A DNA stretch of 64,000 nucleotides from Octopus sinensis. Taxonomy: Eukaryota. A program made the position numbers and the translations under genes. Below are positions 5,442-56,627 of the stretch, piece after piece. The notes under the pieces are model-generated. The model searched no databases. It saw nothing but the letters and a program-made list of their open reading frames with translations, and was not told the DNA's origin. The stretch's first letter is position 1, and each line of letters starts with the position of its first letter. The stretch lies in contig NC_042998.1 in assembly GCF_006345805.1 (NCBI RefSeq), positions 193,626,001 through 193,690,000 on the forward strand, given 5' to 3'.

Positions 5442-5484
<43 letters not shown>

Positions 5485-5486
<2 letters not shown>

Positions 5487-5747
5487 GACATGTACTTGCA
5501 TAGCAAGTGACCTGATCTGAGATCGTGTGCTGAAACAAAAACAATTGCATTTAAGAAACACAAAAAAAAAACGTTAGATTCACTTCAACATTTAAATTTA
5601 ATTTGTCAAAATATTTTCGTCGCTTTGAGACCGCGACCTGTTCACTGACAAAACTTGCACGAATTAAATTTAAATGTTAAAGTGATTCTTACGGTTTTTG
5701 TGTTTTCTTAAATGGCTTATAAACACCTTCCACGCTGCAATTGTTTA
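5485..5747 (-). mobile_element. Short Penelope-like element with inverted arms, in a (TA)n tract
   Basis: Imperfect inverted arms (~5548-5603 and ~5662-5715) flank an HHR-like fold; related copy at 56459-56627. Confidence 0.6.
5602..5652 (-). ncRNA. Candidate minimal type I hammerhead ribozyme, G3-C8 variant
   Basis: Reverse strand reads UUUGUCA-GUGAACA-G-GUCGC-ggucucaaa-GCGAC-GAAA-AUAU-U-U-UGACAAA: 7-bp stem I, 5-bp stem II, palindromic stem III. Confidence 0.6.
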
Positions 5748-7248
5748 TACATACATATATATATATATATATATATTATATATTATATATATATATATAT
5801 ATTATATATATAATATATATATAATACATAAGATATAATGTGTTGTGTGTGTGTTGTTTGTGTATGTATGTATGTATGTATGTATGTATGTATGTATGTA
5901 TGTATGTATGTATGTATATGTGTGTGTGTACATATATGCATATGCAGAGGGACAAAGATAGAGATAGAGAATTGCGATTAATGTACTTCTAATTTCAACC
6001 GACAGACTGAGGCCTGCTGGGAAGGCATAATATCATTGGAAGGAAAGGGTTAACAGATGGATGAGGAACGAGGTGAGAATTGTTGAGAATGGTAATTGGA
6101 TAAATCTTTGCCTGGACATCGATTATAAGCATTATATGAACATTATGAACAAAAGACATATGTCACCATATGATTTACAGAACAAAATGCATGTAAACAT
6201 GAATTTGTAAATTTACAACATCATGTTCCAATCTTGCCGTCAAAATCTGTTAAATCCTACAATTACGTGCACATACTCAAACGCGGACAAATTCAGGTGT
6301 ATATAATTGTGTGTGTGTGTGTGAGACAGAGAGAGAGAGTGTGTGTGTGTGTGTGTGTCAGTGTGTGTGTGTGTGTGTGTCAGTGTGTGCTCGCGCTCGT
6401 ATATTTATATTCATAAATGGGTGCATTTATATTCATAAATTTTTTTATTCTTTTTAGCATAGACACAAATAATCTTAAGTCAGTCACTTTTAATCTGAAA
6501 AAATGCGTCCCACTGCGTCTGTGCGTCTGTGTATATTTTGCTTAAACAGTAAAAGCAGATTTTAAATCTATTTTTAATCGCATAGTGTCAAATATTTATT
6601 TTTTATTCCATAAACCTTTTGTATTTACGTTTTGAGCTGTTACTTTTTAAATATATTTTTTTTCATTTCCTTTACTTCGTGATTTTACAAGTTGCATAAA
6701 ATAAAGGTATTTCGTATTCTATTTTGGCATTCATTTAATCTTGCCCCGAACGATTTGCAAGCTGTATAAAATTTTTACAAAGAATGGCACGAGAGAACAA
6801 TTTTTGAATCTAATGAGCTATTTCCATTTGATTTCAATTAGTCTCAAGTCTGAATGATAAGAAGTGTCTTTCATGAAAGATAACAGTGTCGGGCGTTTCT
6901 GAATAGTCTAGGTTTTATTAGAGTGATGACATGTAATTAGATATTTAATGATCTTTCTTACCAACCACTTAGAAATTGATATTCTAATTTATATTAGCTA
7001 TAAGACTACTCATATCACATCATATCATTTTTGAGAGACAGAGAGAGAAATAATCTCGAATAGTGTAAAGTAAATGTTTTGTCTGCTTACAAAAATAAGA
7101 CTTACTTGTACAAGAACAAACAAAAGCGCAGTTACTTATTTTATTGACCCTAGTTAAAGTCGACTGCGGCTGGATTTGAAACCAGAACGCAAAGAGGAAA
7201 CTAATTTTAAGCAGAAGACTGTGTATCCAGCATTTTACTATTTCAACC

Positions 7249-12025: not shown

Positions 12026-12369
12026 TAGACAGTTGGTCATTCTGCAAGAAATAGCAGTCAATTTTTTCTCCGATCACAATTACCGTCTTAAGGTAAGGAA
12101 AGTCACATTGATTTATATAGTTTACATACTCTAAAAAAGGGGGTGCTATTACAACTAGAATGCCTTTCATCATGGATCTGCTCCCTCGAACAGACTTAGG
12201 AACAAATAACATCAGCAAAAATAGTCTATAAAGAAATATATGATTCCCCATTCATAATCTTTCACTAACTCGTTCAGACACCAATTAACGATGCTAGCCA
12301 TAAGCAAATAAACAATAAAACTATTAGAGAAGCAATAGTAACAACACAAACAAGATATAATTGCTTACC

Positions 12370-13152
12370 TATTTCTTTACTACCCACAAGGGGCTAAACA
12401 CAGACAGGACAAACAAGGACAGACGAACGGATTAAGTCGATTACATCGACCCCAGTGCGTAACTGGTACTTAATTTATCGACACCGAAAGAATGAAAGGC
12501 AAAGTCGACCTCGGCGGAATTTGAACTCAGAACGTAGCGACAGACGAAATACCTATTTCTTTACTACTCACAAGGGGCTAAACACAGACAGGACAAACAA
12601 GGACAGACGAACGGATTAAGTCGATTACATCGACCCCAGTGCGTAACTGGTACTTAATTTATCGACCCCGAAAGAATGAAAGGCAAAGTCGACCTCGGCG
12701 GAATTTGAACTCAGAACGTAGCGACAGACGAAATACCTATTTCTTTACTACTCACAAGGGGCTAAACACAGGGAGGACAAACAAGGACAGACGAACGGAT
12801 TAAGTCGATTACATCGACCCCAGTGCGTAACTGGTACTTAATTTATCGACCCCGAAAGAATGAAAGGCAAAGTCGACCTCGGCGGAATTTGAACTCAGAA
12901 CGTAGCGACAGACGAAATACCTATTTCTTTACTACTCACAAGGGGCTAAACACAGGGAGGACAAACAAGGACAGACGAACGGATTAAGTCGATTACATCG
13001 ACCCCAGTGCGTAACTGGTACTTAATTTATCGACCCCGAAAGAATGAAAAGCAAAGTCAACCTCGGCGGAATTTGAACTCAGAACGTAACGGCAGACGAA
13101 ATACGGCTACGCATTTCGCCCGGCGTCCTAACGTTTCTGCCAGCTCGCCGCC
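12370..13152 (-). mobile_element. SINE family A tetramer (one head + four 184-bp bodies), 21-bp TSD
   Basis: Unit boundaries at 12370, 12554, 12738, 12922; AACAAGATATAATTGCTTACC at 12349-12369 and 13155-13175. Confidence 0.92.
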
Positions 13153-21095: not shown

Positions 21096-21511
21096 TATTT
21101 CTTTACTACCCACAAGGGGCAAAATACAGAGGGGACAAACAAGGGCAGACAAACGGATTAAGTCGATTATATTGACCCCAGTGCGTAACTGGTACTTATT
21201 TAATAGATCCCGAAAGGATGAAAGGCAAAGTCGACCTCGGCGGAATTTGAACTCAGAACGTAACGGTAGACGAAATATCTATTTCTTTACTACCTACGAG
21301 GGGCTAAACACAGAGAGGACAAACAAGGACAGACAAACGGATTAAGTCGATTACATAGACCCCAGTAAGTGGGACTTATTTAATCGACCCCGATTAAAAG
21401 GATGAAAAGCAAAGTCGACCTCGGCGGAATTTGAACTCAGAACGTAACGGCAGACGAAATACGGCTACGCATTTCGCCCGGCCTGCTTAACGTTTCTGCC
21501 AGCTCGCCGCC
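21096..21511 (-). mobile_element. SINE family A dimer with degenerate TSD
   Basis: GTAGAACGTATGCT (21082-21095) and GTAGGACGTATACC (21514-21527). Confidence 0.85.
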
Positions 21512-35200: not shown

Positions 35201-35798
35201 TATTTTTCTTTACTACCCACAAGGGGCTAAACGTAGAGGGGACAAACAAGGACAGACAAACGGATTAAGTCGATTACATCGACTCCAGTGCGAAACTGGT
35301 ACTTTATTTATCGGCCCCGAAAGGATGACAAGCAAAGTCGACCTCGGCGGAATTTGAACTCAGAACGTAACGACAGACGAAATACCTATTTCTTTATTAC
35401 CCACAAGGGACTAAACATAGAGGGGACTAACAAGGACAGACAAACGGATAAGTCGATTACATCGACTCCAGTGCGAAACTGGTACTATTTATCGACCACG
35501 AAAGGATGAAAGGCAAAGTTCGACCTCGGCGGAATTGGAACTCAGAACGTACGACAGACGAAATACCTATTTCTTTATTACCCACAAGGGACTAAACATA
35601 GAGGGGACTAACAAGGACAGACAAACGGATTAAGTCGATTACATCGACTCCAGTGCGTAACTGGTACTTAATTTATCGACCCCGAAAGGATGAAAGGCAA
35701 AGTCGACCTCGGCGGAATTTGAACTCAGAACGTAACGACAGACGAAATACCGCTAAGCATTTCGCCCGGCGTGCTAACGTTTCTGCCAGCTCGTCGCC
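35201..35798 (-). mobile_element. SINE family A trimer with ~16-bp TSD
   Basis: Junctions GAAATACC/TATTTCTTT; AATG(A/G)TGACGGATATA on both flanks. Confidence 0.9.
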
Positions 35799-51115: not shown

Positions 51116-51600
51116 GACCTTTCACCGGTGTCGATGTTTATATTAAATCTTTTTGTGCGACTTAAATTTCAGGTTCAACAAATAGAGAGCGATGAAATAA
51201 ACACTGGTATCAATGATTTAAGCTAAATCCTTTAAGACGGTGCTCCAGTTTGGCTGCAGTCCAATGGTAATGTGTGATTTGAGGAAGAGTTAGCTACCAT
51301 CTCTATTTTTATTTCTATTTCGAATGACCATGCAGAAGCACCCCCTTGTTTGTTTGTGTTTGTCATAGCCATAATATAAGATTGCAACTTCTAATGCTCA
51401 CAGTGAGTTATTGATTTACGTAATATAATTTAATCCTTATTCTGAATAATCAGTGCAATGTTAACTACTTCAAATGTATTATTATTTCGCTTGTTACTAA
51501 ATATTCCACTGTTTAACTTACGCTTGAAACGAAGAAACTTTATTCTTACGTGGAGTACAACCTATAAACTTAAATAATAATAACAATACTTCTGGCCGAA

Positions 51601-52490
51601 GGCGGCGAGCTGGCAGAATCGTTAGCACGCCGGGCGAAATGCTTAGCGGTATTTCGTCTGGCGTTACGTTCCGAGTTCAAATTCTGCCGAGGTTGACTTT
51701 GCCTTTCATCCTTTCGGGGTCGATTAAATAAGTACCAGTAACGCACTGGGGTCGATATAATCGACTTCATCCGTTTGTCTGTCCTTGTGTGTCCTCTCTG
51801 TGTTTAGCCCCTTGTGGATAGTAAAGAAAAAGGTATGAGGAAGGCAGCGAGCTATCAGAAACGTTAGCACGCCGGGCGAAATGCTTAGCGGTATTTCGTC
51901 TGGCGTTACGTTCTGAGTTCAAATTCCGCCGAGGTTGACTTTGCCTTTCATCCTTTCGGGGTCGATAAATTAAGTACCAGTTACGCACTGGGGTCGATGT
52001 AATCGACTTAATACCTATGTCTGTCCTTGTTTGTCCCCTCTGTGTTTAGCCCCTTGTGGGTAATAAAGAAATAGGTATTTCCTCTGGCGTTACGTTCTGA
52101 GTTCAAATTCTGCTGAGGTCGACTTTGCCTTTCATCCTTTCGTGGTCGATTAAATAAGTACCAGTTACTCACTGGGGACGATATAATCGACTTAATCCGT
52201 TTGTCTGTCATTGTTTGTCTTCTCTGTGTTTAGCTCCTTATGGGTAGTAGTATGAGGAAGGCAGCGAGCTGGCAGAATCGTTAGCACACCGGGCGAAATG
52301 CTTTGCAGTATTTCGTCTGCCGCTACGTTCTGATTTCAAATTCCGCCGAGATCGACTTTGCCTTTCATCCTTTCGTGGTCGATTAAATAAGTACCAGTTA
52401 CGTACTGGAGTCGATATAATCGACTTAATCCCTTTGTCTGTCCTTGTGCGTCTTCTTTGTGTTTAGCCCCTTGTGGGTAGTAAAGAAATA
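51601..52490 (+). mobile_element. SINE family A cluster (monomer, dimer, monomer)
   Basis: Heads at 51601, 51843 and 52260; (G)GTATGAGGAA flanks the middle dimer. Confidence 0.9.
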
Positions 52491-53946
52491 GATAATATTT
52501 CTGGTCTACTACATGAACTGAAATCTAATTTTTAGGAGATGTCAATAGCTTATTGTTTTGGCTTCATATGAATAAAAGACAAAGTTGAAACTTGTATGAT
52601 TTGATCTCGGGATTTTTTGCCAGCCCGCCGCTGCCAGAGTGCACCAAATTGTAAGAAGTTCCACGGAAATCAAAATGAAACTCTGTGAGAAGATAAAGAA
52701 TGCCTATGTGATCGATCTAAGTGAATACCTCACAGAAGTAGTCGTCAAATTCCTCTCCAGTATTAACTTACCGTCTTAAAAAGGAAGGACAGTCCATTAA
52801 CCCGTACATATCCATGGTTGCGCTTTCGCAACGAAAAACCTTCTCCTACTTATTTGGATATGAACTCGCCGGGAAGCATCTGATTGAATGTACTGTCCTT
52901 CTCTTCTAGATTGTGAAAGCTTACTATAACGTTTAAGCTAAATACAGTGAAGTTTTTTTTTATGGGTTAAATAACATATTTGTAGACATGTTATGTCTGA
53001 AAAATGGCGAGATGATCAAAGCTGGAAGGCCTCTTGCCATAGATCTGCATAATATAAGTGGCCTGAAATAACCGAAAAGTTCTAGCAAGTCAGTATGCAA
53101 AAGTGATTTCAACACTTTTTTTGTGTGACTTAGTCATGGAGGAATGACCTCTTCATTTATTGCACAACTTTCATGACTGAGAGGGGAAGTCAACGAATTA
53201 AGCTTACTTCATGGGTTGTTGTCGAGCAGGAGACCTTTTTGAATTCTTGCAACAAAATGGAACTCATATAAAGAACCTCTTGTTTGTCAGACAACCATTA
53301 ATACTCATAAAATCTGGATAAAAATACACATTTTCATTTTCCCCAACTCGTACTTTTGTGTCTGGTAAAATAAATAATAATACTTAGCCTGATCCGTCGA
53401 ACCAGCGATGAATTATTTATGCAACTGCTCGACCCGTTAGAAAAATCAGCCAAATCCCTTTCAAACCATACTCTCAAAAGAAAAGGGTATCGTTAGTAAC
53501 GTTTTGATCCTAAGTCTCTTCCATTAGGATGGAATTGTGTTTAGATAACAGCAACAGCAACACCACTGCCATATTTACTCCTATATTCATCAATATCGCC
53601 AAACTAACAAACTACGGACAACGGTATGTCAATAATCACATTCAACTGTCTCAAAAACACTGGTTTCTTTCTATACGGTAAGAAAAACAATGATGGCCAT
53701 AATTTTTATTATAGGTCTACTGAGTCAGAGTTGATTTAGGACTAAACTTACAATAATTGTAGCAACTTGCTATAAATAGTAGCCAAATCATGATGGTCTA
53801 CTCGTTTCCAATTGACCTAAAGCGAAGCAACAACGTCATTTGTGTGCAAGAGATTATTCAATAGAAATGCGGGATTATTTAATATATCTATAGATTCATG
53901 CTGTTTAGATAAATCTATAACAGTCATATTATTAAATCAATAAATA

Positions 53947-56436: not shown

Positions 56437-56458
56437 GTATATATATATATATATATTA

Positions 56459-56622
56459 CGGAGATATGCTTGCATAGCAAGTGACCTGATCTGAGATCGT
56501 GTGCTGGAACGAAAACAATTGCAGCGTGGAAGGTCTTTATAATTTAAATTTAAATGTCGAAGTGAATCTAACGGTTTTTGTGTGTTTCTTAAATGGCTTA
56601 TAAACACCTTCCCCGCTGCAAT

Positions 56623-56627
<5 letters not shown>
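56459..56627. mobile_element. Internally deleted copy of the 5485-5747 element (no HHR)
   Basis: Shared CTTGCATAGCAAGTGACCTGATCTGAGATCGTGTGCTG; inverted AAACAATTGCAGCG..GAAGG / CCTTC..CGCTGCAATTGTTT. Confidence 0.75.

What the first reader, a model, noticed from the sequence alone, without database searches (positions are those of the whole stretch)
5602..5652. Minimal hammerhead fold with a compensatory G3-C8 core swap
Seen (reverse strand): perfect 7-bp stem I, core GUGAACA in place of CUGANGA, one extra purine, perfect 5-bp stem II, GAAA, and palindromic stem III (AAUAUU) ending in UU. Established: C3 and G8 form a Watson-Crick pair in the active hammerhead, and Penelope-like elements carry minimal HHRs with palindromic stem III thought to act as dimers. 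Both core changes together restore the 3-8 pair, so this looks like a selected variant that standard CUGANGA searches would miss. Activity is inferred; the UUU cleavage triplet is suboptimal.
Basis: partly seen in the sequence, partly recalled or inferred. Interest (0 to 1): 0.85.

Follow-up and report, generated by a model that had tools for sequence, protein, structure and literature searches.

The report
Swapped-core hammerhead in octopus retrotransposon
Thousands of copies of a jumping gene in this genome, which appears to be an octopus, carry a hammerhead-shaped RNA in which two paired core letters have traded places, while its two sister families carry the standard pair and a third pairing, so the fold is kept by selection and likely still cuts itself slowly, though cutting is untested.

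Summary
The motif is not a one-off. It is the hammerhead in the terminal repeat (pLTR) of a Penelope-like retrotransposon (RT plus GIY-YIG endonuclease) that I traced to full-length copies. G3-C8 is the family state: 2,704 exact copies against 0 with CUGANGA, 6,921 with a looser pattern, and 53 of 55 copies picked without reference to the core. Two sister families (about 50-55% protein identity, one clade) carry homologous hammerheads with U3-A8 and C3-G8, and five more stem pairs change on both sides. Copies also record a transcript start 60 nt before the predicted cut (40 of 65 end in one untemplated G, likely cap-derived). So those copies came from uncut RNA, and copy ends show no peak at the cut site. 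Best reading: a slow, dimer- or protein-assisted ribozyme in the element's 5' leader; cleavage is untested. The window copy is a truncated passenger. My literature searches found G3-C8 only as a laboratory mutant, but three key papers were unreadable. This scan noted G3-C8 before in phages and a protist retroelement.

The parts
5602..5652 (-). Minimal type I hammerhead fold with G3-C8 core
   Evidence: homologous to sister-family hammerheads
5639..5645 (-). Core strand G3 U4 G5 A6 A7 C8 A9 (G3 = 5645, C8 = 5640); extra G at 5638
5619..5637 (-). Stem II (5 bp, begins G10.1-C11.1) with 9-nt loop II, the part that varies between subfamilies
5609..5618 (-). GAA, palindromic stem III AAUAUU, U17; predicted cut between 5609 and 5608
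   Evidence: cut site inferred from hammerhead numbering
5485..5656 (-). Hammerhead-bearing arm: 5'-truncated pLTR plus start of the ORF, ending at the long (tailed) 3' end; 23-nt deletion at the ORF start; lacks the transcript start
5485..5541 (-). The 'tail': about 58 nt between the family's two 3' ends, part of the ORF's first codons
5657..5746 (+). Inverted, tail-less second arm; a few leader bases are joined through a 4-nt microhomology to sequence downstream of the hammerhead, skipping it
5452..5484 (.). (TA)n target, left side
5746..5823 (.). (TA)n target, right side

Best explanation
The motif is the hammerhead of a Penelope-like retrotransposon family in which the C3-G8 core pair is fixed as G3-C8, and it likely acts as a slow self-cleaver that needs a second copy or the element's protein. 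Shown: it sits in both terminal repeats of full-length elements that encode RT and GIY-YIG, 56 nt before the ORF's ATG, and sister families have U3-A8 and C3-G8 at the same place. Inferred: the element is transcribed from an initiator-like start inside the repeat, 60 nt before the cut. Cleavage after U17 would remove that capped leader, or trim read-through RNA from tandem copies to unit length. Inferred: the protein nicks both strands of a (TA)n target and primes reverse transcription at two sites about 33 and 91 nt into the ORF. When the template is the 5' end of the RNA, the cDNA runs only 150-210 nt to the cap, which gives the thousands of short copies and head-to-head pairs such as the window's. 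Those copies keep a whole hammerhead, so their templates were uncut; slow cutting is compatible with transposition.
For: Family state: 2,704 exact G3-C8 copies, 0 for the reversed control; 0 with CUGANGA before the same stem II; 6,921 with a looser pattern, control 2. G3-C8 in 24 of 25 arms picked by a downstream anchor and 29 of 30 copies picked by an upstream anchor. No variant above 10% over the core and stem I 5' strand in contigs of four runs, organisms A, C, E, F. Parent: a 793-aa open frame about 1 kb upstream of the motif; GIY-YIG over Pfam's cut-off in its C-terminal 142 aa; YVDD and a CxxxCxxC linker read directly; BLASTP E 2e-8 to a protein with RVT_1 and GIY-YIG matches; best named relative an Octopus vulgaris RT-domain protein, 55%. 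L242 has pLTR-ORF-pLTR, and the frame from the pLTR's ATG runs into the RT. Families A (G3-C8), B (U3-A8) and C (C3-G8) form one clade, SH-aLRT 100 on a quick tree. In 11 aligned motifs, 6 of 11 pairs change on both sides, including 3-8; 116 of 117 cells pair, against at most 48% for slid controls. Subfamily changes fall in loop II (6 of 9 positions), not in the hammerhead frame (1 of 42, a wobble-compatible change). Stems I and II form in the native leader. An engineered C3G/G8C double mutant of a Penelope hammerhead is partly active and needs the element's protein (PMC11167929).
Against: No cleavage data. Copy 5' ends show no peak at the cut site: 55 matches, 16 explained by stem I microhomology, against 29 at a control site (39 vs 29, p 0.27); 2 of 50 shorter arms end within 5 nt of it. 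G3 can wobble-pair with U17, and the fold program prefers this. The double-hammerhead form (-25.4 kcal/mol) is less stable than two monomers (-27.6) or another dimer (-30.6). Most family C copies have C in place of the conserved A9, which hints at relaxed catalysis in this clade. The 11 rows stand for only 3-4 independent lineages. The frame is not better kept than the flanks (1 of 42 vs 10 of 158, p 0.46), and 13 of those 42 positions were fixed by the search pattern in part of the sample. No run on record as RNA was listed.
Confidence: 0.66

Rival explanations
1. The motif descends from a hammerhead but no longer cuts at a useful rate. The fold is kept as a protein-binding, promoter or translation element, and the 3-8 pair only as part of that shape.
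For: No fossil peak of copy ends at the cut site while cap-ended uncut copies are common. Hammerhead mutants did not affect insertion of a lizard Penelope element in vitro (PMC11167929). Family C mostly has C9. UUU triplet and G3-U17 wobble.
Against: The 3-8 pair is a tertiary pair of the active core, and three Watson-Crick states in three sister lineages are hard to explain without selection on the active fold. U4 G5 A6, G12 A13 A14 and A15.1-U16.1 are invariant in all 11 rows while the flanks differ.
Confidence: 0.27
2. The ribozyme cuts efficiently in cells, and cut RNA is the translated form while uncut RNA is the template, so cleavage is a switch between messenger and template.
For: The cut lies between cap and ATG, 56 nt before the ORF. 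The leader starts with an ATG whose short frame stops before the ORF (read from sequence). 5'-UTR hammerheads of some RNA viruses promote cap-independent translation (PMC13725137, abstract only).
Against: No RNA-level data. Minimal Penelope hammerheads cleave weakly in vitro (PMC4209133).
Confidence: 0.2
3. Chance hammerhead look-alike in the loop of a MITE-like DNA foldback element.
For: The window copy is a long inverted repeat in a TA target.
Against: Many copies are not inverted, junctions differ in every copy, and the family links to an RT-GIY-YIG ORF. Covariation with sister families. No equal hit in 30 shuffles.
Confidence: 0.02

Closest known systems
Minimal type I hammerheads in pLTRs of Penelope-like elements (Cervera and de la Pena 2014, PMC4209133; parts 1-2 of 4 read)
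   Same: Type I topology in the pLTR, extra nucleotide between 9 and 10.1, G10.1-C11.1, palindromic stem III, mostly dispersed single copies; a U3-A8 variant was reported in Schistosoma
   Different: G3-C8 core fixed family-wide; longer stem I (7 bp); all three pairs found in sister families of one genome
PAc Poseidon element of the green anole (PMC11167929; passages and second half of the main text read)
   Same: Hammerhead at the pLTR-ORF junction, two RT start sites inside the ORF start that define the tail, AT-rich targets, uncut RNA as the main template; engineered C3G/G8C partly active
   Different: PAc has C3-G8 with its cut inside the ORF. Here the swap is natural, the cut is 56 nt before the ATG, the tail is about 58 nt, and the protein has a Cys linker like Neptune or Nematis
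Natural core variants of hammerheads (Perreault et al. 2011, PMC3088659; section 8 and passages read)
   Same: Compensated change of the 3-8 pair in nature
   Different: Its text names only U3-A8; figures and supplements were not seen
Drosophila virilis Penelope promoter (PMC2377424; abstract and passages read)
   Same: Internal, initiator-type promoter within the terminal repeat
   Different: Here the start is inferred from untemplated G at copy ends, and no spliced copies were found

Membership tests
Hammerhead ribozyme (minimal type I) | Three stems around the core, with G10.1-C11.1 and A15.1-U16.1 | tested here: met
   stem III only as a 6-nt palindrome
Hammerhead ribozyme (minimal type I) | Literal CUGANGA core | tested here: not met
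   GUGAACA; 0 canonical copies with this stem II
Hammerhead ribozyme (minimal type I) | Watson-Crick pair between positions 3 and 8 | tested here: met
   G-C here, U-A and C-G in sister families
Hammerhead ribozyme (minimal type I) | NUH cleavage triplet | tested here: met
   UUU; NUH rule in PMC3884650; that U17 is slower than C17 is recalled
Hammerhead ribozyme (minimal type I) | Match to an Rfam hammerhead model | tested here: not met
   none among 10 matches at E<=10
Hammerhead ribozyme (minimal type I) | Self-cleavage at the predicted site | not testable with these tools
   indirect test on copy ends showed no peak
Penelope-like elements (EN+) | ORF with RT and C-terminal GIY-YIG | tested here: met
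   GIY-YIG 24.6 bits over cut-off 22.6. RT by YVDD motif, BLASTP and weak RVT_1 hits in 5 of 9 relatives; no Pfam RT hit on the protein itself and no PDB hit
Penelope-like elements (EN+) | pLTRs in tandem or inverted arrangement, 5' truncation, one-sided tail | tested here: met
   L242; 58 of 80 inverted pairs have one long and one short end, 2 have like ends, 20 unclassified
Penelope-like elements (EN+) | (TA)n or AT-rich targets | tested here: met
Neptune or Nematis clade | Cys-rich linker between RT and EN | tested here: inconclusive
   CxxxCxxC seen; no named references in the tree
Non-LTR retrozymes | Tandem non-coding monomers bounded by hammerheads | tested here: not met
   copies are dispersed pLTR pieces of a coding element

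The most novel reading that the evidence does not exclude
An animal retrotransposon family runs on a naturally G3-C8 hammerhead. Its three sister families have walked the catalytic 3-8 pair through all three states (C-G, U-A, G-C), and the ribozyme, placed between cap and start codon, sorts the element's RNA into cut messenger and uncut template. If so, Penelope elements reported to lack hammerheads may carry swapped cores that CUGANGA searches cannot see.
Probability: 0.3. Interest if true: 0.8.

Novelty: new variant of a known kind. Interest (0 to 1): 0.62.

Why it matters
The 3-8 pair was defined with laboratory mutants, and the papers I could read report only U3-A8 in nature. A G3-C8 core fixed in a family of about 7,000 or more copies, beside sisters with the other two pairs, is natural covariation for that contact. 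It also means ribozyme counts from CUGANGA descriptors are too low. The role of Penelope hammerheads is an open question. This clade gives four natural cores in one sequence frame for direct comparison. The copies also fix the transcript start, the cut position, the ATG and both RT starts, so the leader can be tested directly.

Tried and rejected
Spliced-copy idea: short copies seemed to begin with a 4-nt exon joined at an acceptor-like site. Rejected, because only one G is constant and the letter before it is mixed (T 18, A 14, C 6, G 2 of 40; counted by hand from the 100 of 930 matches listed). Non-autonomous short element with a fixed 5' end: rejected once 602 copies were found to run further upstream. 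A Pfam GIY-YIG search of the genome did not reach the parent family. Rfam gave only microsatellite-driven miRNA matches among the 150 of 320 listed and no hammerhead locally. No RNA holder listed; contigs cannot show cut ends. The metagenome scan gave 2 partial relatives with no hammerhead found in them. PDB sequence search: 0 hits. A rule that N17 avoids pairing with N3 fits this clade, but another family has U3 with A17, so I do not claim it. The careful tree did not finish; the quick tree is used. Could not read: Lunse et al. 2017, Przybilski and Hammann 2007, Arkhipova et al. 2017.

Full report
Observation. The predicted cut is between window 5609 and 5608. The 51-mer folds with z -2.5. 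A descriptor free at positions 3 and 8 finds this site alone in the window. Thirty shuffles give 0.43 hits per window and none with stems as long. Rfam's hammerhead models do not match it.

It belongs to a large repeat family. A DNA search of the own genome gave 1,411 candidates, of which 40 were scored. An exact pattern of core plus stem II has 2,704 matches, reversed control 0. The same pattern with CUGANGA has 0, and a looser G3-C8 pattern has 6,921, control 2. Among copies picked without using the core, 24 of 25 (downstream anchor) and 29 of 30 (upstream anchor) have G3-C8. Contigs of four public runs from organisms A, C, E and F show no variant above 10% over the core and stem I 5' strand, while CpG sites in stem II do decay (those runs are not on record as RNA). 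Subfamily differences crowd into loop II (6 of 9 positions) and spare the frame (1 of 42, an A-to-G that keeps a wobble pair; p 3e-5). The frame is not better kept than the flanks (10 of 158, p 0.46), and part of that sample was picked by a pattern covering 13 frame positions.

The parent is a Penelope-like element. 602 copies run further upstream, through about 1 kb of microsatellite-rich sequence, into a 793-aa open frame with YVDD, a CxxxCxxC linker and a GIY-YIG domain. The whole protein has no Pfam or PDB hit. Its C-terminal part passes Pfam's GIY-YIG cut-off, and 5 of 9 relatives have weak RVT_1 hits. It aligns to a protein with both domains at E 2e-8, and the best named relative is an Octopus vulgaris RT-domain protein at 55%, which is my basis for calling the host an octopus. 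L242 shows pLTR-ORF-pLTR. The ORF starts at an ATG 56 nt after the predicted cut and runs into the RT. Copies have two 3' ends, about 33 and 91 nt into the ORF, mostly beside (TA)n. Of 80 head-to-head pairs, 58 have one long and one short end, 2 have like ends and 20 are unclassified. Without the 30 loci chosen for likeness to the window, it is 36 of 50 with 0 like ends; a few loci are segmental duplicates. This matches the one-sided tail described for these elements (PMC8557442, passages) and the two RT starts of PAc (PMC11167929). The window copy is such a pair: a tailed arm with the motif (5485-5656) and a tail-less inverted arm (5657-5746). It lacks the transcript start and has a 23-nt deletion, so it is most likely a dead passenger.

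Sister families give the decisive comparison. A search with the parent's N-terminal part found related families, of which I fetched 30 loci. Behind their ORFs lie homologous motifs with the same extra G. Family B has U3-A8 (4 loci). Family C has C3-G8, mostly with C at position 9 (9 loci), and one locus, L268, has a fully canonical core. Nine of the 24 non-A loci gave no B or C motif, most being truncated, and L253 carries only an inserted family A copy. Families A, B and C form one clade (SH-aLRT 100), with A sister to B plus C, on a quick tree. In an alignment of 11 motifs, invariant columns are almost all hammerhead positions. Six of 11 pairs change on both sides (two in stem I, 3-8, two in stem II, one in stem III), 116 of 117 cells pair, and slid controls reach at most 48%. 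These rows are 3-4 lineages, not 11 independent events, but each lineage keeps every pair.

The copies record the RNA they came from. Of 100 listed matches at the repeat's 5' end (930 in all), 35 continue with the element's own upstream sequence. Of the other 65, 40 have a G where the template has C, preceded by mixed letters (hand count; p 5e-10 against 25%). I infer a copied cap (cap copying by RT is recalled knowledge) and a start at the A of an initiator-like TCAGAT, 60 nt before the cut. D. virilis Penelope also has an internal initiator-type promoter (PMC2377424, abstract and passages). These copies hold a whole hammerhead, so their templates were uncut. Copies starting exactly at the cut are not enriched: 55 matches, 16 of them stem I microhomology junctions, against 29 at a control site (39 vs 29, p 0.27). 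This is no evidence of cleavage. It agrees with PAc, where uncut RNA is the main template and cleavage needs the protein.

Mechanism. Shown: position, family state, homology and covariation. Inferred: transcription from the repeat, slow cleavage after U17 helped by a second copy through the palindromic stem III or by the element's protein, and loss of the 60-nt capped leader or trimming of read-through RNA. For activity: an engineered C3G/G8C mutant of a Penelope hammerhead is partly active, and stems I and II form in the native leader. Against strong activity: the G3-U17 wobble, a double-hammerhead form 2 kcal/mol less stable than two monomers, the UUU triplet, and C9 in most of family C. A G3-C8 variant was noted as hampered in a C17 context (PMC3884650, passage, data not shown there), and family A has U17. 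I put about 0.66 on a slow active ribozyme and 0.27 on a fold kept without useful cutting. The messenger-or-template switch (0.2) is a more specific version of the active reading, so these figures overlap.

Novelty. Minimal hammerheads in pLTRs are known, with a natural U3-A8 variant (PMC4209133, parts 1-2; PMC3088659, section 8). Full-text searches for G3-C8 and its spellings and for octopus Penelope hammerheads turned up G3-C8 only as a laboratory mutant. I could not read Lunse et al. 2017 (about small hammerhead variants in these elements), Przybilski and Hammann 2007 or Arkhipova et al. 2017, and I saw no figures or supplements; any of these may hold a natural case. Earlier notes of this scan report G3-C8 in phages and in a protist retroelement (unchecked), and none on this sequence or genome. 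A survey that found no hammerheads in Naiad elements used the literal CUGANGA core, so swapped cores could have been missed there; I did not test this. Verdict: a real, new variant of a known kind, with unusually clean natural covariation and untested activity. Interest 0.62.

Noticed in passing
window 56456-56627: Second insertion of the same family, again head-to-head with one long and one short end, both arms truncated downstream of the hammerhead.
   Followed up: partly
L001, L004, L006, L008, L010 (second arms; window 5657-5670): Leader bases joined through a 4-nt microhomology to sequence just past stem I, deleting the whole hammerhead, as if RT jumped the folded stem. Five loci, all from the 30 chosen for likeness to the window.
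   Followed up: partly
L245, L246, L248-L250, L254, L255, L258, L266: Abundant sister family C has C3-G8 but C in place of the conserved A9; L268 keeps A9.
   Followed up: partly
L104, L113, L116-L119, L124, L126, L132, L137: A distant Penelope-like clade in the same genome has its own U3-A8 hammerheads without the extra G, with A17 or U17; some members have a second ORF upstream.
   Followed up: partly
L169-L198, just upstream of the inferred start: The 25 nt before the start look like an intron end (branch-point-like motif, pyrimidines, AG), but no spliced copies were seen.
   Followed up: partly
L086: Tandem array of about 60-nt units made of the leader and the 5' half of the hammerhead.
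   Followed up: no
L251 and L249 (near 7935), L133: Separate canonical CUGANGA hammerhead-like motifs unrelated to the flanking elements.
   Followed up: no
window 12366-13104, 21096-21461, 35205-35751, 51598-52491: Tandem copies of a related unit of about 184 bp at four places, probably a SINE-like repeat (identity not tested).
   Followed up: no
window, many microsatellites: Rfam miRNA matches (mir-297 and others) below gathering score, driven by (TA)n and (TACA)n repeats.
   Followed up: yes
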